From a candidate division WOR-3 bacterium (GTDB lineage Bacteria > Hydrothermota > Tepidihabitantia > SM23-42 > JAOAFX01): 64,000 nt of DNA. A program made the translations under genes and the position numbers. The stretch is from positions 9,607-73,606 of the forward strand of contig JBBINQ010000005.1 of the NCBI GenBank assembly GCA_037443805.1. Direction: 5' to 3'. Below the pieces are notes generated by a model that saw only the letters and a program-made list of their open reading frames with translations, searched no databases and was not told where the DNA came from. Positions 12,586 to 49,010 of this stretch are shown one piece after another. Each line of letters begins with the position of its first letter. Position 1 is the stretch's first letter.

Positions 12586-12613
12586 ATAATATACATAAAT
12601 AATAAAAAATCAA
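12586..12613 (-). promoter_or_regulatory. sigma70-like promoter for alr operon (TTGATT-N16-TATTAT)
   Basis: Read on the reverse complement; -10 ends 7 nt before the alr ATG; no SD. Confidence 0.55.
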
Positions 12614-12623
12614 GAGATAAATT

Positions 12624-12660
12624 GACTTTTAGGTATTTAGGACTTTTAGGTATTGACTTT
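12624..12660. repeat. Direct repeat GACTTTTAGGTATT x2 plus a partial third copy
   Basis: Exact 14-mer at 12624-12637 and 12641-12654, then GACTTT at 12655. Confidence 0.8.
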
Positions 12661-12680
12661 AATGTTATTTTATATAGAAT
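12653..12680 (+). promoter_or_regulatory. sigma70-like promoter (TTGACT-N16-TAGAAT)
   Basis: Upstream of SD GAGGAGG and ATG 12701. Confidence 0.65.
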
Positions 12681-12700
12681 AACCTATGAGGAGGTATTGA

Positions 12701-13927
12701 ATGAAAAAAGCTTTTATCTTTTTACCTTTTCTTATTCTTTTTTTTATTGGTTGTCCGGCAACATGGGAGAATGCTGCCAAAATCTATTTACAGCAGGGTG
12801 AATATGCACGGGCAAAAGAACAGGCACAGGTTGGAATACAAACCAACCCTGAATATTATGGAGCCTATTGTCTTTTAGGTAAGGCAGAGACCGGACTGGG
12901 TAATTATATAGAGGCAGGCAAGGCGTTTCAGGAAGCGTATAAACGGGATTCACTTGCGACCATAAATTGGCTGAAAACAGATGAAGGTGGAAAGAATATA
13001 CCCGTATTCTGGCAGTCGTTTTATAATGCAGCATATAAACTCAATCTGGAAAAAAATTATCAGGAATCCATTCTTTACCTTCAATTTGCTAAAAAACTTG
13101 ACCCAACAAATGTGAGCCAATTTATCCTTGAAGGAAATAATTATGTGGATTTGGGAAATAGGGAACAGGCAATCAAATCTTATCAGAAGGTTCTGGAATT
13201 TGATAAAGAGAATCCTGAGGCGAGTTATTTCATTGCCAAGGTGCATTTTGATAAACAGGCATACGATTCCTGTGTTTTCTACATAGGTAATTCCATAAAG
13301 AGTTTTGAAAAGGATTATGGCAAAATAAAGAATCTTCTCTTTAAAAATGTAGAGTTTAATCAAAATCTTGCATCCGAATTGATAACGTTGTATAAAAATA
13401 AAAAGAAAGAGGCATTGGACCAGTTTATAAAGACCAAACTCGGTTATGATGAGGGTTTTGCCGGGCAGGAAAAGAATGTGGAGAAATTTGTAAAGGTAAA
13501 TGAGGAATATGGCCGCGGCGAATACCTGGCTGGTATTGTTTATCTCAATTTAAGAAATGATACATTGGCACTGAGTCATCTTACAAAGGCAGCAGAATTA
13601 TTGATTGATGACCCAGATGCCCTCTATTTTCTTGGTGAACTTCTGATAAGAAAGAACAAATGGGCTGAGGCAAGAAACTATTTTGATAGGCTGGTCGCAG
13701 TAAAGCCCGATGACTTTGCAGGCTGGTTCTATATTGGTGTATGCTATGCCCAGGAGAAGAACTATAAAAAAGCCATTGAAATCTATGAAGAAAAGGCATT
13801 ACCTCTGGAACCTACAAATATTGACCTTCTCACCAATCTTGCTTATGCATATCGTGAAATAGGGAATACCAAAAAGGCAATGGAGTATTTACAGAAAGCC
13901 GATAAATTATTAAAGGAGAAAAAATGA
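12701..13927 (+). CDS. TPR-repeat lipoprotein
   Basis: Lipobox FFIGC followed by multiple TPRs (YKKAIEIYEEKAL, LLTNLAYAY). Confidence 0.82.
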   Translation: MKKAFIFLPFLILFFIGCPATWENAAKIYLQQGEYARAKEQAQVGIQTNPEYYGAYCLLGKAETGLGNYIEAGKAFQEAYKRDSLATINWLKTDEGGKNIPVFWQSFYNAAYKLNLEKNYQESILYLQFAKKLDPTNVSQFILEGNNYVDLGNREQAIKSYQKVLEFDKENPEASYFIAKVHFDKQAYDSCVFYIGNSIKSFEKDYGKIKNLLFKNVEFNQNLASELITLYKNKKKEALDQFIKTKLGYDEGFAGQEKNVEKFVKVNEEYGRGEYLAGIVYLNLRNDTLALSHLTKAAELLIDDPDALYFLGELLIRKNKWAEARNYFDRLVAVKPDDFAGWFYIGVCYAQEKNYKKAIEIYEEKALPLEPTNIDLLTNLAYAYREIGNTKKAMEYLQKADKLLKEKK

Positions 13928-14910
13928 ACACAAGGGCAACCGAAGCAATTCTTAATATTTTAATCTTCATTGGTTTATTAATATTATTATTCGTTGTTGG
14001 TTATCCTCAGTATAAGGAAGCGCAGCCATCAAAGATTCGCATTGGCGTTGATAAATCATTTGGTTCCCTGCCCTTTTATGTTGCTCAAGTTGATACAACC
14101 AGAAGATATTTTAAGATTGAAAAGGTTGAACCAGAATTTGTTAATATAAATGGCGACCCACTTGAAGGTTTGAAAAGGGGAGATTATGATATTTGTGCTG
14201 TCCCCTGGTATAACCTCCTCATCTCACCGAGCAGTAATGGTGATACAGCAAAGGCACTATGCTCTGTTGCTTTTAAAGGTTTTAGTGATGCGATTGTTAT
14301 TCCCAAAGGAACCAAAATGAAATTTCTGAAGGACTTGAATGGAAAAAAGATTGGCTACCTGATGGATGATTCTTACCTATTTGATTTAATCGCACCGAAC
14401 CTTAAAACCGAGAATCTGACCAAATTTACTAAGGTCCCATTGGCAAGAGAAGAATTGGAAACAGCACTATCAAGTAAAAAGGTTGATGCAATATTTGTAA
14501 TAGAACCTTATCGCAGCCATATGTTATATGTGGGTGATACAACCCTTGATGAAGGGCTTATTAATAGATATATTATGCCTTCAATGCCCTATCTTGCAAT
14601 TGTAATGCGTAAGAGTTTTGTCCAGAATAATCGGCTTGCCTCTTACCGGATAAAGAATGTGCTTGATGGTGTATTAGGTTATCTACGGCTGCGGCCTGAA
14701 ATCGGAAAGAATGTGCTGGTTAAAAATAATAACTGGCCTGATGACCCAATCTATCTTGCAAATATAAGAATGCCTGAGTACCAGCGCCTGAGCGAGATAG
14801 ATATTAAAGGCATAGAGAGTTATCAGACATTTCTGGTGAGAGCAGGGATAGGAACCTGTGGCATAAAACCCCAGGAATTTCTTTTTGAGAGACTTGATTT
14901 CAGGAGATAA
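13924..14910 (+). CDS. Membrane-anchored NitT/TauT (SsuA/NMT1-like) solute-binding protein
   Basis: N-terminal TM anchor, KIRIGV...SLPFYVAQ, LKDLNGKKIGY, VDAIFVIEPY; ATGA overlap with the upstream gene. Confidence 0.75.
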   Translation: MNTRATEAILNILIFIGLLILLFVVGYPQYKEAQPSKIRIGVDKSFGSLPFYVAQVDTTRRYFKIEKVEPEFVNINGDPLEGLKRGDYDICAVPWYNLLISPSSNGDTAKALCSVAFKGFSDAIVIPKGTKMKFLKDLNGKKIGYLMDDSYLFDLIAPNLKTENLTKFTKVPLAREELETALSSKKVDAIFVIEPYRSHMLYVGDTTLDEGLINRYIMPSMPYLAIVMRKSFVQNNRLASYRIKNVLDGVLGYLRLRPEIGKNVLVKNNNWPDDPIYLANIRMPEYQRLSEIDIKGIESYQTFLVRAGIGTCGIKPQEFLFERLDFRR

Positions 14911-14912
14911 TT

Positions 14913-15209
14913 CCGGTCGTGCTAAATGGGGAGCTAGCGGTGCCCTGAATCCTGCTATATTTATGGCAGGATGACCCGAAATCCGCTTATGCGGGATTGA
15001 ATAGCCTCTTTGAGTTAACTCTTTCAGGGGCAACAGCAGGGATTTAAGAATGTTGAGGTTCGGGTCTTATGAAAGCACCGGCTACAAACCCCGCCAGGTC
15101 CGGAAGGAAGCAACGGTAAGTAGAGATGGGCTGGTCATAAGGCAGCCTGGGCTGAGTTCTTTACTTTGCTGTTCCTGAGATGGTTGGCGAATTGGGCTTG
15201 CACGACCGG
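14913..15209 (+). ncRNA. ffs: Signal recognition particle RNA, large Alu-domain-containing type (about 297 nt)
   Basis: Perfect terminal stem CCGGTCGTGC/GCACGACCGG; Ffh-binding helix GCCAGGTCCGGAAGGAAGCAAC; Alu-like 5' segment GTGCTAAATGGGGAGCTAGCGGTGCCCTG...AATCCGC; located upstream of dnaX as in many bacteria. Confidence 0.93.
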
Positions 15210-17047: not shown

Positions 17048-17075
17048 TTGACGCACCCATAAATTTGGCTATAAT
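17048..17075 (+). promoter_or_regulatory. gyrA promoter (TTGACG-N16-TATAAT), probably leaderless
   Basis: Perfect -10; ATG 6 nt downstream; no SD. Confidence 0.72.
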
Positions 17076-17081
17076 AAACTT

Positions 17082-19502
17082 ATGGAAGAGCGAATAACTA
17101 CTGTTTACATTGAAGAAGAGATAAAATCAAGTTATCTTGATTACTCAATGAGTGTTATTGTAGGCAGGGCATTACCTGATGTGCGTGATGGACTCAAGCC
17201 GGTCCAGCGGCGAATCCTATATGCGATGTATGAAGCAGGTCTTGCCTCAAATCGTGCGCACAAAAAGAGTGCAACTGTAATCGGTGATGTACTTGGTAAA
17301 TATCATCCACATGGCGATATGGCAATTTATGATGCCCTGGTCAGAATGGCACAAGATTTTTCAATGCGCTACCCACTGGTTAATGGTCAGGGCAATTTTG
17401 GTTCAATTGATGGTGATGCAGCAGCTGCTTACCGATATACAGAGGTAAGATTTACTGCCCTTGCTGAGGAACTCCTTAAAGACCTGGAAAAAAATACGGT
17501 TGATTTTATCCCCAATTTTGATGGAAGGCTCAAAGAACCATTAGTTCTTCCCGCGGGTTTTCCCAATCTTTTATGTAATGGTGCATCGGGTATTGCAGTT
17601 GGTATGGCAACCAATATTCCACCCCATAATCTTGGTGAGATTATTAATGCGTTGAATGCAATGATTGATGACCCTGAAATTGAAGACAAAAAAATTATGA
17701 AGTTGGTATCTGGTCCTGATTTTCCGACTGGCGGAATCATTGCCGGAAGAAAAGGGATTGAAGAAGCATATTTGACAGGTAAGGGTAGGATTATTATCAG
17801 GGGAAAGATAAAGATTGAAGATTTAAAAGGGGGTAAACAGGCAATTGTCATAATGGAGATTCCATATCAGGTCAATAAATCTACCCTCCTGGAAAAGATG
17901 GCACAATTGGTGAAAGAAAAAAAGATAGAAGATATCTCTGATATAAGGGATGAATCGGATAAAGATGGTATCAGAGTCGTTATTGAATTAAAAAGGGATG
18001 CAAATCCAGAAATTGTATTAAACAATCTTTATAAATATACGAATTTACAGACTACCTATAGTATTCAGTTACTTGCTTTGGTGGATGGTGTACCCAAAAC
18101 ATTAACCTTAAAACAAGCAATCAGACATTTTCTGGACTACCGTTTTGAAGTAATTACACGGCGCACAAAATTTGAATTGGCTGAGGCAGAGAAGAAAGCC
18201 CATATTCTTGAAGGATTAAAGATTGCTATTGAACATATTGATGAGGTAGTTAATATCATTAAAAAATCGGCAGATGTAAAGGTTGCGAAAGAGCGATTAA
18301 TGAAAAGATTTTCACTAACCGAGATTCAGGCGCAGGCAATACTTGATATGCGCCTTGCCCGATTGACCAATCTTGAAAAAGAGGCATTAGAAAAAGAGTA
18401 TTTAGGTTTGATAAAAGAGATTGCCCGCTTGAAATCTATACTTGCTTCACCCAAAGGTGTTTATGGCGTTATCAAAAAAGAATTGAGCGAACTTGCTACA
18501 AAATTTCAAGATAGCAGGCGGACAACTATCTCTGAAATGGAACCTGAAGAACTCACTATAGAAGATTTGATTGCTGAAGAAGATATGGTGATTACACTGA
18601 CCCAGCGCGGTTATATTAAACGACAGCCCATTACTACTTATCGCAATCAAACCCGTGGGGGCCAGGGAAGAAAATTGGTAGAAACAGGTGAAGAAGATTT
18701 TGCCAATCAACTTTTAATTTCCAAGACCACAGATACACTCCTTTTCTTTACTGACCGTGGCAAGGTCTATGCGACAAAAGTTTATGAAATTCCTGAGGCG
18801 GGTCCATTCTCCAAAGGCAGGTCTATTGCCAATCTCATTGAGATGAGCGAAGGTGAAAAAGTTAATGCCTGTCTGGGAATAAAAGAATTTTCTAATAAAT
18901 TTTTTATTTTTATGGCAACCAAACAGGGAAAAGTAAAGAAGACAGCACTTGATGAGTATGAGAATGTCAGAAAGAAAGGTATTATTGCAATAAAATTAGA
19001 ACCGAACGATAGGTTGATTGCCGCAGAACTGACCACGGGCAAAGATTCAGTTTTATTGACCACACACGATGGACAGACCTTAAGGTTCTCTGAGAAGAAG
19101 ACACGCCCAATGGGCAGAAATGCGAGTGGTGTGCGGGGTATGCGACTGGAAAAAGGAGATGAGGTGGTAAGCCTTAATCTTGCGCGAGAGCAAGAAGATA
19201 TGTTGATTATTGGTGAAAAAGGTTTAGGTAAAAGGATTAAATTTGCTGATGTAAATGAAAAGGGCAGGGGTGGAAAGGGTGTGAAGGCAATGACCATTGA
19301 TGAAAAGACCGGAAAGGTTGCTGGTGCAGTAAATGTGAATGATGAAGATGACTTGATTGCGATGACCAGGAGTGGAAAGGGAATAAGGACGCCAGTCAAT
19401 GCCATAAGGGTGATGGGCAGGCAGGCAAAGGGTGTGAAGATAATTACACTGGAAAAAGGTGATACTGTTGTTTCAATTGCACGCATAAAGGCAGAAGTAT
19501 GA
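17082..19502 (+). CDS. gyrA: DNA gyrase subunit A
   Basis: [27 protein letters not shown], catalytic AAAYRYTE, GyrA-box-like QTRGGQG, six-blade CTD repeats. Confidence 0.95.
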
Positions 19503-19515
19503 GAAACTTTTGAAG

Positions 19516-19592
19516 AGTAAGTAGTAGGTAGTAAGTAGTAGGTAGTAAGTAGTAAGTAGTAAGTAGTAAGTAGTAAGTAGTAAGTAGTAGGT
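19516..19592. repeat. Heptanucleotide tandem repeat (AGTARGT) x11
   Basis: Eleven perfect 7-mers: 8 AGTAAGT and 3 AGTAGGT; intergenic, after gyrA. Confidence 0.97.
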
Positions 19593-19597
19593 AGCTC

Positions 19598-19676
19598 CGC
19601 CTTGAAAAAGGCGAGAGTTTTCCGCTTTGCGTGAATTCTCGTTTAAGTCTCTTAAACGGAACTCGTCCTTCGGACG
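19598..19676 (+). other. Cluster of three hairpins upstream of dCMP deaminase
   Basis: CGCCTT-GAAA-AAGGCG; CGTTTAAG-TCT-CTTAAACG within an outer GAGTTTTCCG/CGGAACTC stem; CGTCC-TTC-GGACG. Confidence 0.6.
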
Positions 19677-19696
19677 GAATAAGGAGTGTTTAGATT

Positions 19697-20156: not shown

Positions 20157-20184
20157 TTGACTTTTTAAAAATTTTGGTTAAAAT
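20157..20184 (+). promoter_or_regulatory. sigma70-like promoter (TTGACT-N16-TAAAAT)
   Basis: Upstream of SD TAAGGAGG and ATG 20203. Confidence 0.65.
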
Positions 20185-24988: not shown

Positions 24989-25016
24989 ATTATACCTAAA
25001 TTTTGTGTTAAATCAA
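24989..25016 (-). promoter_or_regulatory. Promoter for nudix-nuclease-ATPase operon (TTGATT-N16-TATAAT), probably leaderless
   Basis: Perfect -10 on the reverse strand, 5 nt before ATG 24983. Confidence 0.65.
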
Positions 25017-25032
25017 TGGTCAGCACTATATC

Positions 25033-25060
25033 TTGACAACGGGTAAAAATTGGATATTAT
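25033..25060 (+). promoter_or_regulatory. tRNA operon promoter (TTGACA-N16-TATTAT)
   Basis: 80 nt upstream of tRNA-Thr; back-to-back with the nudix promoter. Confidence 0.65.
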
Positions 25061-25140: not shown

Positions 25141-25212
25141 GCCGACATAGCTCAGGGGTAGAGCAATGGTTTTGTAAACCATAGGTCGGGGGTTCAAATC
25201 CCTCTGTCGGCT
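25141..25212 (+). tRNA. tRNA-Thr(TGT)
   Basis: Acceptor GCCGACA/TGTCGGC, anticodon arm ATGGT-TTTGTAA-ACCAT, T-loop TTCAAAT; CCA not encoded. Confidence 0.96.
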
Positions 25213-25275
25213 ATATATTGTGCCGGATAGACCACAAATTGCCAGTTCTGAGCTTGCCGCCGGCTGAGTTTCTCC

Positions 25276-25358
25276 GGGCAGGTACCCAAGCGGCCAACGG
25301 GGGCAGACTGTAAATCTGCTGACGAAAGTCTTCGGAGGTTCGAATCCTTCCCTGCCCA
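25276..25358 (+). tRNA. tRNA-Tyr(GTA)
   Basis: Acceptor GGGCAGG/CCTGCCC, anticodon arm GCAGA-CTGTAAA-TCTGC, long variable arm, TTCGAAT; CCA not encoded. Confidence 0.96.
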
Positions 25359-25373: not shown

Positions 25374-25401
25374 TTGACAAACCATTCTTTTTGACTAATA
25401 T
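25374..25401 (+). promoter_or_regulatory. sigma70-like promoter (TTGACA-N16-TAATAT)
   Basis: Between tRNA-Tyr and the next CDS. Confidence 0.5.
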
Positions 25402-27073: not shown

Positions 27074-27084
27074 TGGAGGTATGC

Positions 27085-27312
27085 ATGGCAAAAAAAGAGA
27101 AGAAGGAGAAAGAAAGAGAAAAGAAAGAAAAAAGACCCGAGGCACTTATTGATATTAAATTTACACAGAAAAACTATCTGTTCTTTGGTGCCGGACTTAT
27201 TTCTCTAATTATTGGATTTATCCTGTTAAGAAATGGAGATATTGTGCTGGCACCAATCTTATTAGTGCTGGGTTATCTTGTTTTCTTTCCACTGGGTATT
27301 CTTGTTAAATAA
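27085..27312 (+). CDS. Small two-TM membrane protein (DUF3098-like)
   Basis: Charged N-terminus, FTQKNYLFFGAGL...LAPILLVLGY; SD GGAGG before ATG 27085. Confidence 0.7.
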   Translation: MAKKEKKEKEREKKEKRPEALIDIKFTQKNYLFFGAGLISLIIGFILLRNGDIVLAPILLVLGYLVFFPLGILVK

Positions 27313-27378
27313 CTGATATCTGGATACCTGTTTCTTATATTTATTTGTTGATAATTAGATTGTTCTATTTTTTATCCA

Positions 27379-29523: not shown

Positions 29524-29551
29524 TTGACAAAAGATGCAATTTTGGTATAAT
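29524..29551 (+). promoter_or_regulatory. guaB promoter (TTGACA-N16-TATAAT, extended -10 TG), probably leaderless
   Basis: Both hexamers perfect; ATG 5 nt after the -10; no SD. Confidence 0.8.
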
Positions 29552-32991: not shown

Positions 32992-33019
32992 TTGACAATG
33001 GTGATTAATTATATATAAT
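32992..33019 (+). promoter_or_regulatory. wza operon promoter (TTGACA-N16-TATAAT), probably leaderless
   Basis: Both hexamers perfect; ATG 5 nt downstream. Confidence 0.8.
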
Positions 33020-40545: not shown

Positions 40546-40573
40546 TTGACATTGTAATTATTTTAGATAAAAT
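40546..40573 (+). promoter_or_regulatory. Promoter for DUF6754 operon (TTGACA-N16-TAAAAT), probably leaderless
   Basis: ATG 40580 lies 6 nt downstream; no SD. Confidence 0.65.
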
Positions 40574-40579: not shown

Positions 40580-41662
40580 ATGTTTTTATTACTCTTCATT
40601 ATTAATATATATGCGATAGATTTACGGGCATTTGACACACCAAATGATGATGGTTCAGGTATTACTATTAATTGGCAAACTTACCAGAATTATCAAACCT
40701 TTGCTATCTACAGAAGCACTGAACCATCGGGCATTTTTGAAAAGATTGGTGAAGTGGAGGGTTCAGAAAATAGATTCCTGGATACAAATATTAAAACAGG
40801 ACAGGAATATTATTATAAATTAAATGCAAGGCAGGACACGCTTATAGATTCTTCCCGGGTGGTTGGACCAATAAAGTCTCAGGTGCAGTATTTTAATACT
40901 GCACGCCTTCCTATGGCAATCTGCATAATTATACTTTTTGCTGCCATTCTTTTTTATATCAGTCAGGCGAAAAAAAGGGGAAGATTGTTTATCAGAAAGA
41001 TTCCTGCACTCAATGCAGTTGAAGAGGCGATTGGCAGGGCAACAGAGATGGGCAAGCCCGTGCTTTATGTTCCGGGCATAATGGATATTGACGACCCTCA
41101 GACCATTGCCTCAATGAGTATCCTTTCAAGGGTTGCAGAAAAGACTGCAGAATATGGCACACCGCTCTATGTTCCAACGAGTCGCTCAATGGCTATGACC
41201 ATGGCGCAACAGGTGGTCAAAGAGGCAGCAACCAGGGTAGGCCGTCCTGACTGGTATAATATTGATAATATCCGATATATTACGGATGACCAGTTTGCCT
41301 ATGTATCTGCAGTTGATGGTATTATGGTGCGGGAAAAACCAGCGACGAATCTTTATTTAGGAACATTTTATGCAGAGTCATTAATTCTTGCGGAAACCGG
41401 TCATTCTACAGGTGCAATTCAGATTGCAGGCACTGCAATGCCTGACCAGTTGCCATTCTTTGTTGCAGCGTGTGATTATACACTTTTAGGTGAAGAACTA
41501 TATGCAGCAAGTGCCTATCTCTCACAAGAACCAGTCCAGTTAGGCTCACTAAAAGGCCAGGACCTCGGCAAGTTGATCTTTATTGGTGTGATCATTATTG
41601 GTGTGCTATGCCAGATTTTTTCCTATCAGTTTTTCATTAACCTTTTTAATACGATAGAATGA
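40580..41662 (+). CDS. FN3 + DUF6754-domain membrane protein
   Basis: Signal-like N-terminus, FN3 (DTPNDDGSGITINW...YYYKL), TM, then GRATEMGKPV, QIAGT, FFVAACDYTLLGEELYAASAYLS, C-terminal TM. DUF name from recall. Confidence 0.72.
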   Translation: MFLLLFIINIYAIDLRAFDTPNDDGSGITINWQTYQNYQTFAIYRSTEPSGIFEKIGEVEGSENRFLDTNIKTGQEYYYKLNARQDTLIDSSRVVGPIKSQVQYFNTARLPMAICIIILFAAILFYISQAKKRGRLFIRKIPALNAVEEAIGRATEMGKPVLYVPGIMDIDDPQTIASMSILSRVAEKTAEYGTPLYVPTSRSMAMTMAQQVVKEAATRVGRPDWYNIDNIRYITDDQFAYVSAVDGIMVREKPATNLYLGTFYAESLILAETGHSTGAIQIAGTAMPDQLPFFVAACDYTLLGEELYAASAYLSQEPVQLGSLKGQDLGKLIFIGVIIIGVLCQIFSYQFFINLFNTIE

Positions 41663-42282
41663 AGACGATAATACCTTTAATAATTGTTTTTGCATGTGGA
41701 TTTTATATGTTAATTACATTTTTTATTCCAGCACGATTTGCCCAAGCCAGTTCTCAAACACTCCAGAATTGGTATCTGGGTGTTATAGCATTTTTTGTAT
41801 TTATTGGTATATTTAATCTTATTAGAATCAATGTGGATAAAATTCAGCGGCGTTTAAGAGATTGGCAATACAGTTTTATTTTATTGTTTTTTTTGGGAGT
41901 GATGTTAGGAGCAGGATTTATTGGTGGTAGAGATTCACGGATATTTTTATATTTCTTTGAAAATTTTCAGGTGCCGCTGGGCGCCACTATGTTTTCTCTC
42001 TTGGCATTCTTTGTTGCCTCGGCGTCATTCCGTGCATTCCGTGCGAAAACACCAGAGGCGACATTGTTGTTGATCGCGGCAGTGGTCGTGATGATTGGCA
42101 GGATCCCTATTGGTTATTTAATATGGCACGGTTTTCCTGACCTGGTAGAATGGATTATGCAGGTTCCGAATACTGCAGCAAAGCGTGGCATTCTCTTCGG
42201 TATTGATTTAGGGCTGATCTCTATGGCATTGCGCGTGCTCCTGGGTATTGAAAGAAGTTATATGGGAGGAGCCCGTGAATAA
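41659..42282 (+). CDS. Polytopic membrane protein (about 6 TM), subunit of DUF6754 cluster
   Basis: ATMFSLLAFFVASASFRAFRA, PNTAAKRGILFG, RVLLGIER; ATGA overlap with the upstream gene. Confidence 0.75.
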   Translation: MKTIIPLIIVFACGFYMLITFFIPARFAQASSQTLQNWYLGVIAFFVFIGIFNLIRINVDKIQRRLRDWQYSFILLFFLGVMLGAGFIGGRDSRIFLYFFENFQVPLGATMFSLLAFFVASASFRAFRAKTPEATLLLIAAVVVMIGRIPIGYLIWHGFPDLVEWIMQVPNTAAKRGILFGIDLGLISMALRVLLGIERSYMGGARE

Positions 42283-42303
42283 AATATTTATCAGGGTTAT
42301 TAT

Positions 42304-43125
42304 ATGAATCTTATTGAACGCTTGAGCAAATTAGATAGAAGGATTATTTTTCTGCTTGTCGCACTGGCAGTCATTATCCCGATGCTTGTGCCACTTAATC
42401 TACCTGTGGATATTACAAAACCAGTAAAAAATGTCTATCAAAAGATTGAATCTCTACCTGAAGGTTCAGTAGTGCTCATTTCTACAGATTATGACCCGGG
42501 TAGTGAGGCAGAACTCTATCCAGCGACCGAGGCAGTGATTGAACATTGTTTTCACAAGAATTTAAAGATATATATGATGGGTCTATGGCCAGCTGGCAGT
42601 GAATTGGGTAATGTGGCTTTAAATCAGATTGCCCAAATATATAATAAAAAATATGGTGAGGATTATATAAATGTGGGTTATCGGCCGGGTGGTGCAATTA
42701 TGCTCTTGAGTTTAGGCCGTAATTTTGCTGATGTAATAAAGGTTGATTATCAGGGTGTCCCTATTGATTCATTCCCCTTAGGAAAGAAAGTAAAATCGGC
42801 AAAAGATCTGGGCCTGGTTATGACCTTTTCTGCTGGAGACCCTGGTATATTACACTGGATAATCTATTTCCATGCCCGCTATGGTATTCCAATCTGCGGT
42901 GCGACCACTGCAATTATGGCACCGCAACAGTATGCATATTTAAGTTCTGGACAGCTGGTTGGACTTTTAGGTGGACTAAAGGGTGCAGCAGAATATGAGA
43001 CCCTTGTGAATAAAAAGGGCAGGGGGTTAAGGGGAATGGATGCACAGTCTATTGTTCATCTTCTGCTTGTCGGATTCATTGTTCTTGGTAATGTGATACT
43101 GGTCTATCAGCGGAGGAAAAAATGA
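42304..43125 (+). CDS. Membrane-anchored alpha/beta-domain protein (DUF6754-related)
   Basis: N- and C-terminal TMs, DYDPGSEAELYP, YGEDYINVGY, GQLVGLLGGLKGAAEYE. Confidence 0.7.
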   Translation: MNLIERLSKLDRRIIFLLVALAVIIPMLVPLNLPVDITKPVKNVYQKIESLPEGSVVLISTDYDPGSEAELYPATEAVIEHCFHKNLKIYMMGLWPAGSELGNVALNQIAQIYNKKYGEDYINVGYRPGGAIMLLSLGRNFADVIKVDYQGVPIDSFPLGKKVKSAKDLGLVMTFSAGDPGILHWIIYFHARYGIPICGATTAIMAPQQYAYLSSGQLVGLLGGLKGAAEYETLVNKKGRGLRGMDAQSIVHLLLVGFIVLGNVILVYQRRKK

Positions 43126-43739
43126 TAAATACCTTAGGAATATGGATTGCCGCAGTCTTAACCCTTGCCATATACTCATTCTTGTATAAGGATAATCCAT
43201 TCTATAAAATTGCGGAAAATATCTTTGTTGGTGTCTCTGCTGGCTATTGGGCAGTTGTTCTATGGTTTGATTTTGCCTGGCCCAATTTATTTGAGCCTCT
43301 GTTCTACCGGGGCCAGTGGTATAATATCTTTCCTGTATTTATTGGACTTTTGATGTTTGCACCACTCATTCCCAAAATCTCCTGGATGATACGCATTCCC
43401 CTGACATTCACGATGGGCATTTCTATGGCTGTCTTTATAACTCAGATTGTTCAGGGTGACATCTTTCCCCAGTTGCAGGCAACATTCTTGCCTCTAAAAG
43501 ATGTCCCTGCTTTTACTATATTTTCCAATCTTTTGATTATCATTGGTGTAATCTTCACGCTTATCTATTTCTATTTTTCTAAAGAGCACAAAGGACCATT
43601 AGGTATTTTTGCCAGGATTGGTATCTGGTTTATGATGGTTTCATTCGGTGCTTCGTTCGGATACACAATTATGGCTCGTGTATCACTATTTATCGGTAGG
43701 GTATATTTTTTGCTACATAACTGGTTGGGAGTGATATAG
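43122..43739 (+). CDS. Polytopic membrane protein (about 6 TM), subunit of DUF6754 cluster
   Basis: SFLYKDNPFYKIAENIFVGVSAGY, YFYFSKEHKG, FGASFGYTIMAR. Confidence 0.75.
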   Translation: MINTLGIWIAAVLTLAIYSFLYKDNPFYKIAENIFVGVSAGYWAVVLWFDFAWPNLFEPLFYRGQWYNIFPVFIGLLMFAPLIPKISWMIRIPLTFTMGISMAVFITQIVQGDIFPQLQATFLPLKDVPAFTIFSNLLIIIGVIFTLIYFYFSKEHKGPLGIFARIGIWFMMVSFGASFGYTIMARVSLFIGRVYFLLHNWLGVI

Positions 43740-44576
43740 ATGGCTGATTTTGAGATTAATTTAAAGGAATTTAATCTTTCTGATATACTACAATTTCTTA
43801 CTTACTTGAAAAAAAGCGGTGTGGTCAGAGTAAGCGGTGAATTGAATGGTGAGATATATCTAAGAGATGGCAATATTGTGCATGCAACCGATGGCACAGA
43901 AAAAGGATTTGAATCATTGCTCAATCTTTCCCTGGTCAATCTTGAACGGGCAGTTTTTGAAGCAGGAATAAAGGCGACCGAACACACAATTTCTGAGGAT
44001 GTGGGAAAATTGACCGAAACTATTGAAAGGCGAAGGATTGAATTTGAGCAGATTAAGGAACATTTGCCACCACGCGATGCAGTGCTTGCAAAATCAACAA
44101 AAGAATTACCGAGTGCGGTTGCCCTGCGCCGAACTGACTGGCAGGTTCTGGCAATGGTTGATGGCAAAAGGACCATTAATGAAATTATTGCCCAGTCAAA
44201 ATTGGGTGGATATGAAACCATAAAGACCATTATCTGGCTAAAAGAACAAGGTTTGATTTACGACCCGAGGGAAGCAGAGAGATTAATGGCTGGTTTGATT
44301 CATTATTTAAATGCATTTTTTAAAATTTTTGGCAAACATGGTTTGAATTGGTTCAGAAGATGGTGCGAGCAAAATTCGCAAGAACAAGCATTGAGCTCGG
44401 CACTGAAGGTAAATGAAGATACCTTTGAGATTGTTGTGCAGAATCCAATGTCCCAGGAGCAGATTGATGAGTTCAGAAAAAAGTTTGATAAGTTTATTGA
44501 TACAGAAGGTCCTCTGGTCTATGGAAAATTACTGTTCAAGAAAAAACTTGAAGAGTTCCGTGCCGAATTGAAATAG
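43740..44576 (+). CDS. DUF4388 (PATAN-like) + winged-helix domain protein
   Basis: FEINLKEFNLSDILQFL..LKKSGVVRV..GEIYLRDGNIVHA; wHTH-like DWQVLAMVDGKRTINEII...LKEQGLI; ATG directly follows the upstream TAG. Confidence 0.78.
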   Translation: MADFEINLKEFNLSDILQFLTYLKKSGVVRVSGELNGEIYLRDGNIVHATDGTEKGFESLLNLSLVNLERAVFEAGIKATEHTISEDVGKLTETIERRRIEFEQIKEHLPPRDAVLAKSTKELPSAVALRRTDWQVLAMVDGKRTINEIIAQSKLGGYETIKTIIWLKEQGLIYDPREAERLMAGLIHYLNAFFKIFGKHGLNWFRRWCEQNSQEQALSSALKVNEDTFEIVVQNPMSQEQIDEFRKKFDKFIDTEGPLVYGKLLFKKKLEEFRAELK

Positions 44577-44589
44577 AAAGGAGTGGTGA

Positions 44590-45375
44590 ATGGAGATATT
44601 GGATAAGATACCAGGCGTAATAAATTATGCTGTGGTCAATGCCGAGGATGGCTCAATTGAGAAGATAAAAGGTTCGTCAACTTCACCGATTGGTGACCTC
44701 ACTGCATTCTTCTCCTCGGCAGCAGAGGTGATAAAAAATACGCTGGGACTGGGTGAAATAAATTTTGTATCACTCTGTTACGGCGCAAATCGTTTGATAA
44801 TATTTATTCATAATAATAAGTATCTTGGTATTGAAGTAGAGCGAGAGGCAAAACCCTCTGAGGTGATTGAAAAGATAAAGGCTCAGTTGTCTTTGATTGG
44901 AGAAGAGAAAAAAGAGGTGGTGATAGAAGAGAAAAAGGAAGAAGTAGAAGAAAAGGTCGTGGAAAAAGAAGAGCGACCAGAGGTTCAGGTTGTTGAGGAG
45001 AAAGTAGTTGAAGAGGTTAAACCAGCCCCGGCTCCAGTCAAAGAAGAGATTAAATTACCAAGGAGCATCGGTTCAAAATTGATGCAGATAAATCTGTTGA
45101 TTGATGAATTTGGAAGCGGTGGTAAAAAGGCACACTGGCTTGATATTCTAAATCAAGGTCTGGGCGTAATTGCCACAGATATTCTGCCCATTGTTGGTAT
45201 CATTGGTGAAAAAATGGAATTCAAACAGAATCCACCTCTGGAAAAAGAAGATGACATTGTTCAGATACTGAGAACACTGATTGATTTTCTGGTCAAAAAA
45301 GCAGTGGAAGAAATAGGTTCTTCTCAGGCACGGGTAAAAGTTCAGGCAGTCATTGAAAAGATGAAACAATTGTGA
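44590..45375 (+). CDS. Roadblock/LC7-like domain + E/K/V-rich linker + C-terminal helical domain
   Basis: About 100-aa alpha-beta domain (KIPGVINYAVVNAEDG...LIIFIHNNKYLGIEV), low-complexity linker EEKKEVVIEEKKEEVEEKVVEKEE. Confidence 0.6.
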   Translation: MEILDKIPGVINYAVVNAEDGSIEKIKGSSTSPIGDLTAFFSSAAEVIKNTLGLGEINFVSLCYGANRLIIFIHNNKYLGIEVEREAKPSEVIEKIKAQLSLIGEEKKEVVIEEKKEEVEEKVVEKEERPEVQVVEEKVVEEVKPAPAPVKEEIKLPRSIGSKLMQINLLIDEFGSGGKKAHWLDILNQGLGVIATDILPIVGIIGEKMEFKQNPPLEKEDDIVQILRTLIDFLVKKAVEEIGSSQARVKVQAVIEKMKQL

Positions 45376-45379
45376 GGGG

Positions 45380-45976
45380 GTGAATGCTATGAATGAAGAA
45401 ATATTGAATAAGATTGAGGAGCGTGGTCTGGGTCTACCTTTTGTTGTAAAAAAAGATGGCGAGACCATTACTTCGCATAGTGGAGAAACAAATAAAGCAA
45501 AGTTTTCTCAAACTGGCACTGTTCTATTTGAATCTATTGGCGCAGTGGGTGGAATAAAGATTGATGTCATTGAAATTGTAGGAAGTAATCAGAGCCTGCT
45601 CTGCGATATTTCTGAAGAAGAGTTGATCGGGCACATCTATGCGACATCCCAGATGTCCATACTTGATAATATCTGGAATGCGATAAAAGATATAAGGGCA
45701 AAACAAAAAGAAGAGGTTGTTGAAGTAGAGAAACCCAAAGAGAAATTTGCACCTGAATTTCTTGAGCAATTGAAGGCGATTGTCCAGGATTATCTTGGTG
45801 ATTTTACAGAAAGGGTTTATCAGAATCAACTCAAAGCACAGCGCATAAAGATTGAAGAACTTTATGAAGAGGATCTGAGAAGGTTCATCTTTGCACTTGG
45901 CAAGGCAGCGGGAATGATTATTGGTCCGACAAAAGGTAAGGATTTGACCAACAAACTTCTTGCAAAATTAAAATGA
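45380..45976 (+). CDS. Roadblock/LC7-like domain + helical C-terminal domain
   Basis: Beta-hairpin/helix pattern FVVKKDGETIT...VLFESIGAVG...IEIVGSNQSLL; start could be 45389. Confidence 0.5.
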   Translation: MNAMNEEILNKIEERGLGLPFVVKKDGETITSHSGETNKAKFSQTGTVLFESIGAVGGIKIDVIEIVGSNQSLLCDISEEELIGHIYATSQMSILDNIWNAIKDIRAKQKEEVVEVEKPKEKFAPEFLEQLKAIVQDYLGDFTERVYQNQLKAQRIKIEELYEEDLRRFIFALGKAAGMIIGPTKGKDLTNKLLAKLK

Positions 45977-46074
45977 TAAGATATAATCAGTATCAGAGAT
46001 GGAAATTTGAAATCTGGAATCTCATTAGAATTTCTATAACCGGATTTGGAACTTAAAAAAATATAGGAGGTTCT

Positions 46075-46443
46075 ATGTCCTTAATATTATTTTCTGCACC
46101 ATTCGGGATAGAAGAGTCAACCTATCAGGCACTGGCAATAATCCCGAACTATGTGCTGGTAGTTGGTGCAATTTTATTATGGCTCGCCTTCATTTTTTTG
46201 GGAATCATTGCGCGCCGTTATGAAATTGTGCTCGGTGAAAAGACCAACTGGCAGTTTATGGTTATTGCACCCACAGGTATTTTGCTCTTTGCTTTGATCC
46301 AATTGATATTTTGCGGAATAGGCGGCAAGATGATGTTGCCCAAAGGCGGTATAAATTATCTTGCATATGGCTTATTCTTTCTCTCAGGAATTCTCTCGGT
46401 TGTGGCAAACTTAAAATTTTATGGAGTCACTAAGGGAAAATAG
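46075..46443 (+). CDS. Small 3-TM membrane protein
   Basis: SD AGGAGG; three hydrophobic helices; LGIIARRYEIVLGEKTNWQF. Confidence 0.72.
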   Translation: MSLILFSAPFGIEESTYQALAIIPNYVLVVGAILLWLAFIFLGIIARRYEIVLGEKTNWQFMVIAPTGILLFALIQLIFCGIGGKMMLPKGGINYLAYGLFFLSGILSVVANLKFYGVTKGK

Positions 46444-46452
46444 GGAGGTTTT

Positions 46453-46803
46453 ATGAGGGCAGATTTAATTGCGGAAATTATTTTTATTGTGGCAATATTG
46501 CTTGCCATTATTTCGCTTATCATCTTCGGCCTTATCTTGAAGAGGCTCCTCAATTTAATAGGTGGAAAGGGCATCTGGGTCTTTCCTTTGATTGGCTGTC
46601 TATTTCTGGTCGCAATGGCGGTATTCCATTTATATCGTATTATCTTCTACTTTCCGCTCTTGAGCGTTGCTGGTCCAGGCGACCTTTTTGATTTAATCAT
46701 TGGTTCTCTTGCCCTTGCTCGGTATGAAAGTTTTCTCTTTCTTGGTGCCGGTCTTTTCCCATTGATTGGTGGGATACTTTATTATAGTGCAAGTTCAAAA
46801 TGA
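46453..46803 (+). CDS. Small 3-TM membrane protein, probable paralog of 46075-46443
   Basis: SD GGGAGG; FGLILKRLLNLIGGKGIWVF aligns by eye with the neighbour. Confidence 0.72.
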   Translation: MRADLIAEIIFIVAILLAIISLIIFGLILKRLLNLIGGKGIWVFPLIGCLFLVAMAVFHLYRIIFYFPLLSVAGPGDLFDLIIGSLALARYESFLFLGAGLFPLIGGILYYSASSK

Positions 46804-46806: not shown

Positions 46807-46834
46807 TTGACATTTTCCATAAAATAATTATAAT
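46807..46834 (+). promoter_or_regulatory. exbB operon promoter (TTGACA-N16-TATAAT)
   Basis: Both hexamers perfect; SD AAAGGAGG before ATG 46862. Confidence 0.8.
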
Positions 46835-47485: not shown

Positions 47486-47950
47486 ATGGAATTGAGGCAA
47501 AAGAAAAAATATCAAGCCGCTATTCCTACTGCCTCAATGGGTGATATTGCATTTTTGATCATCATTTTCTTTATGACCACAACTGTTTTTACCAGGGAAA
47601 AAGGTATCAAGATGCTTCTACCTGAAAAAACCGAGACTGAGACCAAGGTCAAACCAGAGAATGTTGTTTCAATTCTGATAAATCCTGAAGGTGCATTAAA
47701 ACTGAGGGCAACGGGTTATGATGGAATTGACATATCTCCCCAGCAATATAGTGAAGTGCGAAGAATCGTTGAAGAAAAGCTCTTAGAAAGGGATACTTTA
47801 CTCGTAGTCTCCTTGAAAACGAGTAAAGATGCCCAATACCAGGCAATGATAGGAGTGCTTGACCAGATAAAGCTCGCAAAAGTGGTCACCCAGGATGGCA
47901 GAGAATTAAAGGCAAATAAAATAAGTCTTATCCCAACGAGTGAGGAATAA
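47486..47950 (+). CDS. exbD: ExbD/TolR family protein
   Basis: IPTASMGDIAFLIIIFFMTTTVF with conserved Asp. Confidence 0.9.
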   Translation: MELRQKKKYQAAIPTASMGDIAFLIIIFFMTTTVFTREKGIKMLLPEKTETETKVKPENVVSILINPEGALKLRATGYDGIDISPQQYSEVRRIVEEKLLERDTLLVVSLKTSKDAQYQAMIGVLDQIKLAKVVTQDGRELKANKISLIPTSEE

Positions 47951-48366
47951 TGCGTAAAAGTATTATCAGAAGGTTTACCAGAACACCTGAAATTCCTACT
48001 GCCTCAACTGCTGATGTTGCCTTTCTTTTAATACTTTTCTTTATGGTCACTACGGTGTTCAGGGCAACTTCCCTTAATCTAAAGATTGTGCTGCCCAAGG
48101 CAAAGTCTACAGAAAGGATTCTTATCCGCAGGAATATTACCCATATCTGGGTTGATAATAATGGTCGTGTATTTATTGATGATAGCCTTGTTCCCAAGGA
48201 ACGGGTCAGTTCAAAGATATCGCCCAAGGTTGCGGAAAATCCTGAGCTGGTTACAATCTTAAATATCCATAGCGATATTGAATATGGCACAGTAGATGTG
48301 ATACTTGACCAATTAAAAGAGTCCCGGGCATTTAAGATTACATTTGCTACAGAATTTGGAGGATGA
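47950..48366 (+). CDS. exbD: Second ExbD/TolR family protein
   Basis: IPTASTADVAFLLILFFMVTTVF; LPKA. Confidence 0.9.
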   Translation: MRKSIIRRFTRTPEIPTASTADVAFLLILFFMVTTVFRATSLNLKIVLPKAKSTERILIRRNITHIWVDNNGRVFIDDSLVPKERVSSKISPKVAENPELVTILNIHSDIEYGTVDVILDQLKESRAFKITFATEFGG

Positions 48367-48367
48367 G

Positions 48368-48976
48368 ATGCGTGACCATAAATTGATGTATGGGGTATAT
48401 TTCCGCACAGGAATGTTTATCGGTATAATTTTGTTGATTCTACTATTTCTGTTCTTGCCCTATGCTGAGGTAGAACCTTATAAATTGAGAAAAGAGGTTG
48501 TGACAATGGTGGAAGAGATTTCTGCGGAGATTGAAAAGTATGAAGAACCTCCACCAGTGGAGAGGCCAAAGGTTGCGGTTGCTGCTGCTCCATCTGAAGT
48601 TACTGAGGAGGCGGTTGAGACCATTGCCGCAACTGAATTTCGGGAGGATATCATTAGAACCCAGCCCACGGGTCCGGAAATAGAGATTGTTCCTTATTTT
48701 AAGGTAGAGGTAAAACCACAACCTATCTCAATGCCTGCACCAGAATGGCCCGAACTTGTAAAAAGAGCAGGCATTGAAGGTAGTCTACAAGTGAAGTTTT
48801 TGGTGAATGTTGATGGCACTGTTATGGATGTCCAGATTGTGAAATCCAGCGGTAATCAGTTACTTGATGAGGCAGCAGTGGCGAGTGTATGGAAATATAG
48901 ATTTACTCCGGCAAAACAGCGTGATAAACTCGTAAGGGTATGGGTCTTTAGAAAAATAGAATTTAAATTTAAGTAA
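48368..48976 (+). CDS. tonB: Energy transducer TonB
   Basis: TM anchor, Pro-rich linker EEPPPVERP, TonB_C GIEGSLQVKFLVNVDG...LDEAAVASVWKYRFTPA; start ATG 48368. Confidence 0.9.
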   Translation: MRDHKLMYGVYFRTGMFIGIILLILLFLFLPYAEVEPYKLRKEVVTMVEEISAEIEKYEEPPPVERPKVAVAAAPSEVTEEAVETIAATEFREDIIRTQPTGPEIEIVPYFKVEVKPQPISMPAPEWPELVKRAGIEGSLQVKFLVNVDGTVMDVQIVKSSGNQLLDEAAVASVWKYRFTPAKQRDKLVRVWVFRKIEFKFK

Positions 48977-48982
48977 TTATCC

Positions 48983-49010
48983 TTGACAATTTTTATTTTT
49001 TTAATATAAT
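48983..49010 (+). promoter_or_regulatory. Promoter of lipoprotein-TBDR-PorV operon (TTGACA-N16-TATAAT)
   Basis: Both hexamers perfect; about 75-nt leader with two SD-like motifs. Confidence 0.78.

What the first reader, a model, noticed from the sequence alone, without database searches (positions are those of the whole stretch)
12586..49010. All twelve recognisable sigma70-type promoters have a 16-nt, not 17-nt, spacer
Seen: 28-nt -35/-10 spans at 12653, 17048, 20157, 25033, 25374, 29524, 32992, 40546, 46807 and 48983 (plus strand) and 12586-12613 and 24989-25016 (minus strand). Four are perfect TTGACA-N16-TATAAT, and I noticed no comparable N17 match. Established: the E. coli and B. subtilis optimum is 17 nt. 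Inference: this lineage's primary sigma or RNA polymerase has a shifted spacer preference. The promoters were picked by eye, so selection bias is possible.
Basis: partly seen in the sequence, partly recalled or inferred. Interest (0 to 1): 0.62.

Follow-up and report, generated by a model that had tools for sequence, protein, structure and literature searches.

The report
Promoters with a fixed 16-base spacer
In this uncultured WOR-3 bacterium and its relatives, the standard bacterial promoter boxes TTGACA and TATAAT sit 16 bases apart, not the 17 that recent cross-phylum surveys call universal, which suggests the transcription machinery of this lineage has a shifted geometry.

Summary
Four are perfect TTGACA-N16-TATAAT, against about 0.04 expected by chance at any one spacing, and no other spacing from 12 to 22 nt has a perfect match.

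Selection by eye is not the cause. A matrix trained only on relatives finds 8 window sites at N16 and none at N15 or N17. Ten related genomes (153 kb, GyrA 64-92% identical) give 12 perfect sites at N16 and none elsewhere. With one mismatch allowed they give 34 at N16 and 1 at N17. The same script peaks at N17 on Bacillus phage SPO1.

The gyrA promoter keeps N16 in 11 genomes while its spacer sequence diverges. About half of the promoters place the -10 box 5-7 nt before an ATG, so those mRNAs are predicted leaderless, which also fixes the -10 register.

The organism belongs to candidate division WOR-3 (Caldifarciminota). A distant WOR-3 genome (L020) follows the rule. Another (L026) is mixed, and two give no usable signal.

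A holoenzyme optimum of 16 bp is the likeliest cause, but it is untested. No RpoD sequence and no RNA data could be reached. Less negatively supercoiled DNA is the main rival.

Verdict: a new variant of a known kind, of moderate to high interest.

The parts
12586..12613 (-). alr (alanine racemase) promoter, TTGATT-N16-TATTAT. The -10 box is followed by 7 nt and then ATG at 12578, so the mRNA is predicted leaderless. The true start is 18 nt inside the longest ORF.
   Evidence: Conserved with N16 in L001.
12653..12680 (+). Promoter of the TPR protein gene (12701), TTGACT-N16-TAGAAT. Leader of about 14 nt with GAGGAGG (20 nt from -10 end to ATG). Divergent from the alr promoter.
   Evidence: L001 orthologue is also N16.
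17048..17075 (+). gyrA promoter, TTGACG-N16-TATAAT, then 6 nt and ATG (17082). Leaderless. An in-frame TAA lies inside the -10 box.
   Evidence: Same architecture in L001-L004 and L006-L010, plus L020.
20157..20184 (+). Promoter of the hypothetical 175-aa gene (20203), TTGACT-N16-TAAAAT. Shine-Dalgarno-led.
   Evidence: L002 orthologue is N16.
24989..25016 (-). Promoter of the NUDIX / SbcD-like / SbcC-like operon, TTGATT-N16-TATAAT, then 5 nt and ATG (24983). Leaderless.
25033..25060 (+). Promoter upstream of tRNA-Thr and tRNA-Tyr (25141-25358), TTGACA-N16-TATTAT. Predicted leader of about 74 nt.
25374..25401 (+). Promoter of the BamD-like TPR lipoprotein gene (ATG 25412). TTGACA-N16-TAATAT, with an alternative reading N19-TATTAT. 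Ambiguous.
29524..29551 (+). guaB (IMP dehydrogenase) promoter. Perfect TTGACA-N16-TATAAT with TGG before the -10 box, then 5 nt and ATG (29557). Leaderless.
32992..33019 (+). Promoter of the polysaccharide export operon (Wza-like, Wzc-like and following genes). Perfect consensus N16, then 5 nt and ATG (33025). Leaderless.
40546..40573 (+). Promoter of the DUF6754 operon (40580-46803), TTGACA-N16-TAAAAT, then 6 nt and ATG. Leaderless.
45960..45987 (+).
46807..46834 (+). Promoter of the exbB-exbD-exbD-tonB-like operon. Perfect consensus N16. Shine-Dalgarno-led, about 21-nt leader (27 nt from -10 end to ATG).
48983..49010 (+). Promoter of the operon encoding the 344-aa protein, a TonB-dependent receptor and T9SS-tail proteins. 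Perfect consensus N16. About 71-nt leader (77 nt from -10 end to ATG).
14885..14911 (+). Probable exception: TTGAGA-N15-GATAAT, ending 5 nt before the 5' end of the large SRP RNA (14917-15205). It overlaps the last codons of the upstream gene.
   Evidence: Conserved in L001 as TTGAAA-N15-GATAAT.

Best explanation
These are the housekeeping (primary sigma, sigma70/sigmaA-type) promoters of a WOR-3 (Caldifarciminota / 'Stahlbacteria'-like) bacterium. In this lineage the holoenzyme reads near-consensus TTGACA and TATAAT boxes across a 16-bp spacer. That places the TTG of the -35 box one base pair closer to the -10 box than in E. coli or B. subtilis. The spacer carries a T-rich stretch (-19 to -16) followed by G at -15 and -14, which resembles an extended -10 element. 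The -10-to-start geometry is canonical: transcription is inferred to begin about 6 nt after the -10 box. In about half of the promoters that position is the A of the start codon, so those mRNAs would be leaderless. The rest have Shine-Dalgarno leaders. Shown here: the sites, their statistics, their position before genes, and their conservation in length but not in spacer sequence across relatives. Inferred: recognition by the primary sigma, the transcription start positions, and that the 1-bp shift reflects a changed distance or rotation between sigma regions 2 and 4 on the polymerase (the sigma 3-4 linker or the beta flap).
For: Exact sites. Four perfect N16 sites against 0.04 expected, and none at other spacings. 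Relatives only, 153 kb: 12 perfect sites at N16 and 0 elsewhere. With one mismatch: 34 at N16 and 1 at N17, shuffle mean about 1.3. Spacer-blind test anchored on TAnnnT-N5/6-ATG at ORF starts: 22 of 29 have a TTGACA with at most one mismatch at N16, and none at any spacing from 13 to 20. Other phyla give 1 of 38, at N17. A matrix trained on relatives gives 8 window hits at N16 and none at N15 or N17. Positive control SPO1: with one mismatch, 7 at N17 and 0 at N16. With two mismatches, 27 against 6. The gyrA promoter is N16 and leaderless in the window, L001-L004, L006-L010 and L020, with divergent spacers. More distant phyla have Shine-Dalgarno-led gyrA. The promoters serve housekeeping genes: gyrA, guaB, alr, tRNAs. 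Logo of 40 sites: T at -19 to -16, G at -15 (24 of 40) and -14 (21 of 40), ATG beginning 5-6 nt after the -10 box in 21 of 40.
Against: There is no direct TSS evidence, because no RNA runs hold this sequence. No RpoD, RpoB or RpoC of the lineage was obtained, so no indel or substitution can be named. One probable N15 promoter (SRP RNA) and one ambiguous N17/N15 site (23580) exist. Not all genomes labelled WOR-3 follow the rule. L026 has 2 N16 and 2 N17 sites, L061 shows no signal, and the apparent N16 excess in L027 is a CRISPR array artefact. The sample is about 217 kb around one syntenic region, not whole genomes.
Confidence: 0.6

Rival explanations
1. DNA topology rather than the enzyme. 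The polymerase has the usual optimal angle between boxes, but the chromosome of this lineage is kept less negatively supercoiled, and therefore more tightly twisted. That would bring the -35 and -10 boxes into phase at 16 bp instead of 17.
For: The torsional model of Forquet et al. predicts that short spacers are favoured on relaxed DNA. Promoters activated by relaxation in E. coli have shorter spacers (PMC9303308). The DNA runs holding this sequence come from hot spring, subsurface, sediment and aquatic metagenomes. The GyrA box of the clade is QTRGGQG or QSRGGQG and lacks the second basic residue of the usual Q(R/K)RGG(K/R)G. That could mean altered supercoiling activity, which is a lead and not a test.
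Against: By my own estimate, a full 1-bp shift (about 34 degrees over 17 bp) needs nearly all of a superhelical density change of about 0.06 to go into twist. That is more than is usually unconstrained in vivo. The rule holds in genomes of 38-56% GC and in at least two deep WOR-3 branches. GyrA otherwise scores as a full-length gyrase. Non-basic GyrA-box variants also occur in loci with no N16 rule, such as L035, L061 and L080.
Confidence: 0.15
2. Deliberately suboptimal spacing. The enzyme optimum is 17 bp as elsewhere, but the lineage uses 16 bp with near-perfect boxes. This would make open complexes short-lived and responsive to global signals, as in E. coli rRNA P1 promoters.
For: From my own knowledge, E. 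coli rrn P1 promoters have 16-bp spacers. Forquet et al. note that 16-nt promoters behave unusually. The boxes here are exceptionally close to consensus, with 16 perfect sites in 217 kb, as if compensating for a handicap.
Against: No N17 promoter rises above chance in 217 kb, which is hard to maintain against single-base insertions if N17 were stronger. The gyrA promoter kept N16 in 11 genomes with no case of 17 bp plus weaker boxes. Discriminators are AT-rich, not GC-rich as in rrn P1. The rule covers every gene class seen.
Confidence: 0.1
3. Register or naming artefact. Sigma region 4 of this lineage reads cTTGAC, one base upstream, so the spacer counted between the recognised elements is still 17.
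For: C precedes TTGACA in 21 of 40 sites and T in only 1. The sixth base of the hexamer is the weakest, A in 27 of 40.
Against: The invariant TTGAC core is still one base closer to the TA of the -10 box than in SPO1/B. subtilis promoters counted by the same script (TTG-N19-TATAAT occurs 38 times against about 5 background). The leaderless ATG fixes the -10 register independently. So the physical distance is changed, whatever the hexamer is called.
Confidence: 0.05
4. Chance or by-eye selection. The twelve sites are cherry-picked matches in AT-rich DNA.
For: At two mismatches the window holds many chance hits at every spacing, about 16 expected per spacing. A CRISPR repeat in L027 shows how a repeat can fake an N16 excess.
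Against: Perfect and one-mismatch counts, the independent training and test sets, intergenic placement and cross-genome conservation all reject it. The 40 clade sites are all distinct sequences.
Confidence: 0.01

Closest known systems
Canonical sigma70/sigmaA promoters of E. coli and B. subtilis (TTGACA-N17-TATAAT)
   Same: Same two hexamers. A at -11 and T at -7 are invariant. A G-containing element lies just upstream of the -10 box. About 6 nt separate the -10 box from the inferred start. The promoters serve housekeeping genes.
   Different: The mode of the spacer is 16, not 17, with nothing above chance at 17 or 18. The boxes are far closer to consensus than is typical of E. coli (my own knowledge). 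About half the promoters abut the start codon.
E. coli rrnB P1-type promoters with a 16-bp spacer
   Same: 16-bp spacing between near-consensus boxes.
   Different: In E. coli this is a minority class tied to a GC-rich discriminator and growth-rate control (own knowledge). Here it is the general rule, with AT-rich discriminators.
Leaderless promoter architecture of Deinococcus-Thermus and Actinobacteria (GeneMarkS-2 'group C')
   Same: A -10 box 5-8 nt upstream of the start codon with no Shine-Dalgarno sequence, mixed with Shine-Dalgarno-led genes in the same genome (PMC6028130; PMC12340547).
   Different: Most Deinococcus leaderless promoters lack a recognisable -35 box, and an added one works at 17 bp. 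Here nearly all have a strong TTGACA at 16 bp (22 of 29).
Bacteroidota/Chlorobi primary-sigma promoters (-33 TTTG / -7 TAnnTTTG)
   Same: Stahlbacteria (WOR-3) are listed in the FCB superphylum in one RNAP study, alongside Bacteroidota, whose promoter geometry and naming (-33/-7 or -33/-6) differ from the E. coli standard. TTG-N19-TA in WOR-3 lies within the TTG-N17-23-TAnnTTTG range quoted for Flavobacterium.
   Different: WOR-3 keeps TATAAT and TTGACA. TAnnTTTG is not enriched at any spacing. Whether the Bacteroidota optimum equals 19 between TTG and TA is my recollection and was not verified here.
Alternative-sigma promoters with short spacers (ECF sigmas, S. aureus sigmaB)
   Same: Spacers shorter than 17 and narrow length tolerance (PMC11156646 abstract).
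   Different: Those have different box sequences and stress regulons. Here the boxes are the primary-sigma consensus in front of housekeeping genes.

Membership tests
Primary-sigma (sigma70/sigmaA) -35/-10 promoter | -35 hexamer resembling TTGACA | tested here: met
   TTGAC is invariant or nearly so in all 40 clade sites (chosen with at most one mismatch). 22 of 29 spacer-blind candidates have a TTGACA with at most one mismatch.
Primary-sigma (sigma70/sigmaA) -35/-10 promoter | -10 hexamer resembling TATAAT, with A at position 2 and T at position 6 | tested here: met
Primary-sigma (sigma70/sigmaA) -35/-10 promoter | Spacer distribution with its mode at 17 bp (range 16-18) | tested here: not met
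   The mode is 16. With one mismatch allowed there are 41 sites at N16 against 3 at N17 in 217 kb, and N17 is at chance level. 16 is inside the accepted range, so the sites qualify individually, but the family's modal value is not reproduced.
Primary-sigma (sigma70/sigmaA) -35/-10 promoter | Placed in intergenic DNA upstream of transcription units, including housekeeping genes | tested here: met
Primary-sigma (sigma70/sigmaA) -35/-10 promoter | Transcription starts 6-8 nt downstream of the -10 box | tested here: inconclusive
   Indirect only. ATG begins 5-6 nt after the -10 box in 21 of 40 sites, and the SRP RNA 5' end lies 5 nt after a -10 box. No RNA runs are available.
Primary-sigma (sigma70/sigmaA) -35/-10 promoter | Bound and used by the organism's group-1 sigma holoenzyme | not testable with these tools
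   No RpoD of the lineage was retrievable.
Leaderless-mRNA gene starts (GeneMarkS-2 group C pattern) | -10 box 5-8 nt upstream of the start codon, no Shine-Dalgarno sequence, alongside Shine-Dalgarno-led genes | tested here: met
   Six of 13 window promoters (alr, gyrA, NUDIX, guaB, wza, DUF6754). 29 candidates in the clade. The other genes have GGAGG leaders.
Bacteroidota sigmaABfr promoters | TAnnTTTG at -7 with TTTG at -33 | tested here: not met
   TTG-Nx-TAnnTTTG is not enriched at any x from 15 to 24 in the clade.
E. coli rrn P1-type 16-bp promoters | 16-bp spacer combined with a GC-rich discriminator, restricted to stable-RNA and growth-rate-controlled genes | tested here: not met
   The spacer criterion is met, but positions -6 to -1 are AT-rich and the class covers all gene types.

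The most novel reading that the evidence does not exclude
A deep bacterial lineage, WOR-3/Caldifarciminota or at least two of its major branches, has re-tuned its RNA polymerase holoenzyme. The unchanged consensus boxes are read across 16 bp with essentially no use of 17 bp. This would be the first documented exception to the 'universal 17-bp spacer', and it is coupled to widespread leaderless mRNAs that carry full -35/-10 promoters.
Probability: 0.5. Interest if true: 0.72.

Novelty: new variant of a known kind. Interest (0 to 1): 0.64.

Why it matters
Two cross-phylum surveys state that the 17-bp spacer is conserved across bacteria. Myers et al. 2021 (PMC8407463) found 17 bp the most frequent distance in every species with TSS maps. 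[quoted passage not shown] A lineage that uses the same boxes at 16 bp contradicts that generalisation.

It would matter in four ways. It offers a natural experiment on what sets the distance between sigma regions 2 and 4. It would mislead promoter predictors that assume or reward 17 bp. It matters for building genetic tools in WOR-3, now that a first isolate exists (PMC12285271). It also improves start-codon annotation in these genomes, for example the alr start at 12578.

Tried and rejected
TSS evidence. Two searches for sequencing runs found only DNA metagenomes (subsurface, sediment, hot spring, aquatic) and no RNA run. I therefore did not use read laying.

RpoD. A tblastn with the E. coli sigma70 regions 2-4 (sequence from memory; it found Gemmatimonadota sigmas at 39% identity) gave no hit in the window or any WOR-3 locus. 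The window holds only an ECF sigma and its anti-sigma factor.

Extending the contig. Exact-protein look-ups of three window proteins were not on record.

Metagenome scan.

Large homology search. I ran no further search on RpoD, because a generic sigma query would rank thousands of other lineages first.

L027 as support. I first counted its 35 N16 hits as support. Inspection showed a CRISPR array whose repeat mimics TTGACC-N16-TAGAAT, so I withdrew it.

N21 excess. The small N21 excess in the window (6 hits at one mismatch) comes from coding-region hits or second readings of other sites, not a second promoter class.

SRP RNA promoter. Rfam found the RNA only in L001 among 8 of the relatives (L005 and L009 not scanned), so conservation rests on two genomes.

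Bacteroidota motif. It was tested and found absent from WOR-3. There was too little Bacteroidota sequence to measure their own optimum.

Literature. No paper on WOR-3 promoters or leaderless mRNAs was found. The ProFinder supplementary per-phylum table is not held.

Full report

Every listed span was read back. Each has a TTGACA-like hexamer, exactly 16 nt, and a TATAAT-like hexamer at the stated coordinates. A count over the whole window on both strands gives 4 perfect TTGACA-N16-TATAAT sites (29524, 32992, 46807, 48983). No other spacing from 12 to 22 nt has a perfect match. Two hundred dinucleotide-preserving shuffles give about 0.04 per spacing, with a maximum of 1 at N16.

With one mismatch allowed, N16 has 7 sites and N17 has 2, against an expectation of about 1. 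Of the two N17 hits, 54143 lies inside a 986-aa coding sequence. The other, 23580(-), sits at an internal gene junction and can equally be read as N15.

**2. Was it selection by eye?**

No. Four tests show this.

- I trained a weight matrix on relatives only. It covered the -35 box plus one flanking base, and the -10 box plus four upstream bases. Scanning the window with spacing free from 13 to 21 gave 8 hits of 14 bits or more at N16, none at N15 or N17, and chance-level singletons elsewhere.
- I surveyed every intergenic region of 25 nt or more upstream of a gene or RNA. Wherever the best candidates have two or fewer mismatches and lie close to the gene start, an N16 reading is among the best. 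Three regions tie with another spacing: ECF sigma (N20, 53 nt upstream), NUDIX (N15, 72 nt upstream) and tRNA-Thr (N19).
- The survey revealed a thirteenth N16 candidate at 45960.
- The tool's own consensus scan ranks the same sites at the top.

**3. Which organism is this?**

GyrA (17082-19502) is 90-92% identical to three MAGs labelled candidate division WOR-3 or simply 'bacterium' (L001-L003). It is 76-79% identical to 'Candidatus Stahlbacteria'/WOR-3 MAGs (L004-L009) and 64% identical to L010. NCBI now names WOR-3 the phylum Caldifarciminota.

The gene content fits a Gram-negative FCB-type bacterium. It includes T9SS sorting tails, TonB-dependent receptors, ExbBD and many TPR proteins. The DNA runs that hold this sequence are subsurface, sediment, hot spring and aquatic metagenomes.

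**4. Is the rule lineage-wide?**

| Mismatches allowed | N16 | N17 | N15 | N18 | Shuffle mean per spacing |
|---|---|---|---|---|---|
| 0 | 12 | 0 | 0 | 0 | about 0.06 |
| 1 | 34 | 1 | 3 | 2 | about 1.3 |

The signal holds from 38% to 56% GC. All 40 sites in the clade with at most one mismatch are distinct sequences.

As a control, the same script on the first 50 kb of Bacillus phage SPO1 (41% GC) gives 7 sites at N17 and 0 at N16 with one mismatch. With two mismatches it gives 27 against 6. So the method recovers 17 where 17 is expected.

A test blind to spacing used a weak TAnnnT placed 5-6 nt before an ATG that opens an ORF of 80 aa or more, with an in-frame stop close upstream. It finds 29 cases in the clade. 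Of these, 22 have a TTGACA with at most one mismatch at exactly N16, and none at any other spacing from 13 to 20. About 1.2 Mb from other phyla gave 38 such cases, and only one has a -35 box, at N17.

**5. Phylogenetic footprint**

The gyrA promoter is TTGAC(A/T/G)-N16-TATAAT, or TTGATT in L004, followed by 5-7 nt and the GyrA start codon. This holds in the window, L001-L004 and L006-L010. The spacer differs at most positions apart from a T-run and GG. L020 is a WOR-3 genome of 55% GC with only 53% GyrA identity. It has TTGACT-N16-TAGAAT, then 7 nt and ATG before gyrA, plus eight other distinct N16 sites. In other phyla gyrA is preceded by a Shine-Dalgarno sequence instead.

Orthologous alr, TPR-protein and 175-aa-gene promoters in L001 and L002 are also N16. 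Constant length with divergent sequence shows selection on the length itself.

**6. Limits of the lineage claim**

The large N16 excess in L027 is an artefact. It comes from 26 copies of a CRISPR repeat that happens to read TTGACC-N16-TAGAAT. L026 has two N16 and two N17 sites, and L061 shows nothing. So the rule is established for the window's clade and for L020, not yet for the whole phylum.

Seven Omnitrophota-like loci gave 12 N16 against 6 N17 sites. This may mean the tendency is wider.

**7. Anatomy**

The logo of 40 sites shows these features:

- C precedes TTGACA in 21 of 40 sites.
- Positions -19 to -16 are T-rich.
- G is at -15 in 24 of 40 sites and at -14 in 21 of 40.
- Positions -6 to -1 are AT-rich.
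- An ATG begins 5-6 nt after the -10 box in 21 of 40 sites.

In the window, six promoters are of this predicted leaderless type: alr, gyrA, NUDIX operon, guaB, wza operon and DUF6754 operon. For gyrA an in-frame TAA lies inside the -10 box, and the protein aligns from residue 1 with other GyrA sequences. No longer ORF or Shine-Dalgarno sequence is therefore possible. Five others have GGAGG leaders. One precedes tRNA-Thr and tRNA-Tyr, and one (25374) is ambiguous.

The leaderless start codons fix the -10 register independently. The -10-to-start distance is canonical, and it is the -35 box that sits one base closer.

**8. Exceptions**

TTGAGA-N15-GATAAT ends 5 nt before the SRP RNA 5' end and is conserved in L001, with 5 of 15 spacer changes against 1 of 12 in the boxes. 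It is probably a real N15 promoter, although it overlaps the end of a coding sequence. Site 25374 can be read as N16 (TAATAT) or N19 (TATTAT).

**9. Mechanism**

The simplest reading is that the holoenzyme's preferred spacing is 16 bp. That means sigma region 4 on the beta flap sits about one base-pair step closer, or differently rotated, relative to sigma region 2. This step is inferred. I could not obtain RpoD, RpoB or RpoC for the lineage.

The main rival is DNA topology. The torsional model of Forquet et al. predicts that short spacers are favoured on relaxed DNA. The clade's GyrA box is the unusual QTRGGQG. However, by my own estimate a full 1-bp shift needs an implausibly large twist change. 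The rule also spans 38-56% GC and two deep branches.

A 'deliberately suboptimal' strategy, as in E. coli rrn P1, is unlikely. No N17 variant appears anywhere, and the discriminators are AT-rich.

A register shift (reading cTTGAC) would only rename the shift. TTG-N19-TATAAT occurs 38 times against about 5 for neighbouring spacings.

**10. Comparison with what is known**

Myers et al. 2021 found 17 bp the most frequent spacing in every species with TSS data. The ProFinder preprint of September 2026 reports a median of 17 in all 49 panel genomes. It reports 17 bp enriched in 60 of 67 phyla and depleted in none, and concludes that the canonical spacer holds across bacteria. Its search admits only 16-18 bp, and its per-phylum table is not available to me.

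Deinococcus leaderless promoters mostly lack a -35 box, and an added one works at 17 bp. Bacteroidota and Chlorobi, in the FCB superphylum where one RNAP study also lists Stahlbacteria, use -33/-7 or -33/-6 motifs. WOR-3 does not use TAnnTTTG. I found no paper on WOR-3 promoters.

A first WOR-3 isolate, strain sy37, now exists, so the prediction can be tested experimentally.

**11. Verdict**

The molecular cause remains open. This is a new variant of a known kind of element, of moderate to high interest.

Noticed in passing
window 12576-12596, 17082, 24983, 29557, 33025, 40580: Six genes (alr, gyrA, NUDIX operon, guaB, wza, DUF6754) start 5-7 nt after a -10 box with no Shine-Dalgarno sequence. 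Their mRNAs are therefore predicted leaderless, unlike Bacteroides (about 3.7% of 5' UTRs under 10 nt). The longest alr ORF (start 12596) overruns its own promoter, and the real start is probably 12578.
   Followed up: partly
window 18648-18668 (GyrA residues 523-529); same motif in L001-L010 and L020: The GyrA box reads QTRGGQG (QSRGGQG, QTRGGHG, QIRGGVG or QGRGGAG in relatives) instead of the usual Q(R/K)RGG(K/R)G. Its second basic residue is lost throughout the N16 clade. Similar non-basic variants occur in some Omnitrophota-like loci and in L035, L061 and L080.
   Followed up: partly
L027 3374-5068: A CRISPR array of 26 repeats with a 66-bp period. The repeat contains TTGACC-N16-TAGAAT and so mimics a promoter excess. 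This is a trap for any spacer census.
   Followed up: yes
L012, L032, L036, L037, L043, L050, L051: Omnitrophota-like loci, some labelled 'uncultured Planctomycetales', show 12 N16 against 6 N17 sites with at most one mismatch. Many have TGT directly before TATAAT. A shorter-spacer tendency may exist outside WOR-3.
   Followed up: partly
window 40580-46803: An operon of ten genes led by a DUF6754 protein and containing a DUF4388 protein. The other eight products match no Pfam family.
   Followed up: no
window 14885-15205: A large-type SRP RNA lies directly before dnaX-ybaB. It is preceded by a conserved TTGAGA-N15-GATAAT that overlaps the stop codon of the upstream gene. This is the only good non-N16 promoter candidate.
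   Followed up: partly
window 19503-19696 and 27074-27378: Two long intergenic gaps of 194 and 305 nt, in an otherwise very compact genome, have no consensus promoter and no Rfam match. The first contains a small GC hairpin (19664-19676).
   Followed up: no
window 1165-2531 (-): An ECF sigma factor gene with a downstream zf-HC2 anti-sigma gene. Its upstream region has no N16 housekeeping promoter, as expected if the gene is autoregulated.
   Followed up: no
L007 19179-19222; L003 18487-18591; window 12586-12680 and 24989-25060: Divergent promoter pairs are common. In L007 the two -35 boxes sit back to back, 4 bp apart, within a 44-bp span. In the window the pairs are 39 and 16 bp apart.
   Followed up: no
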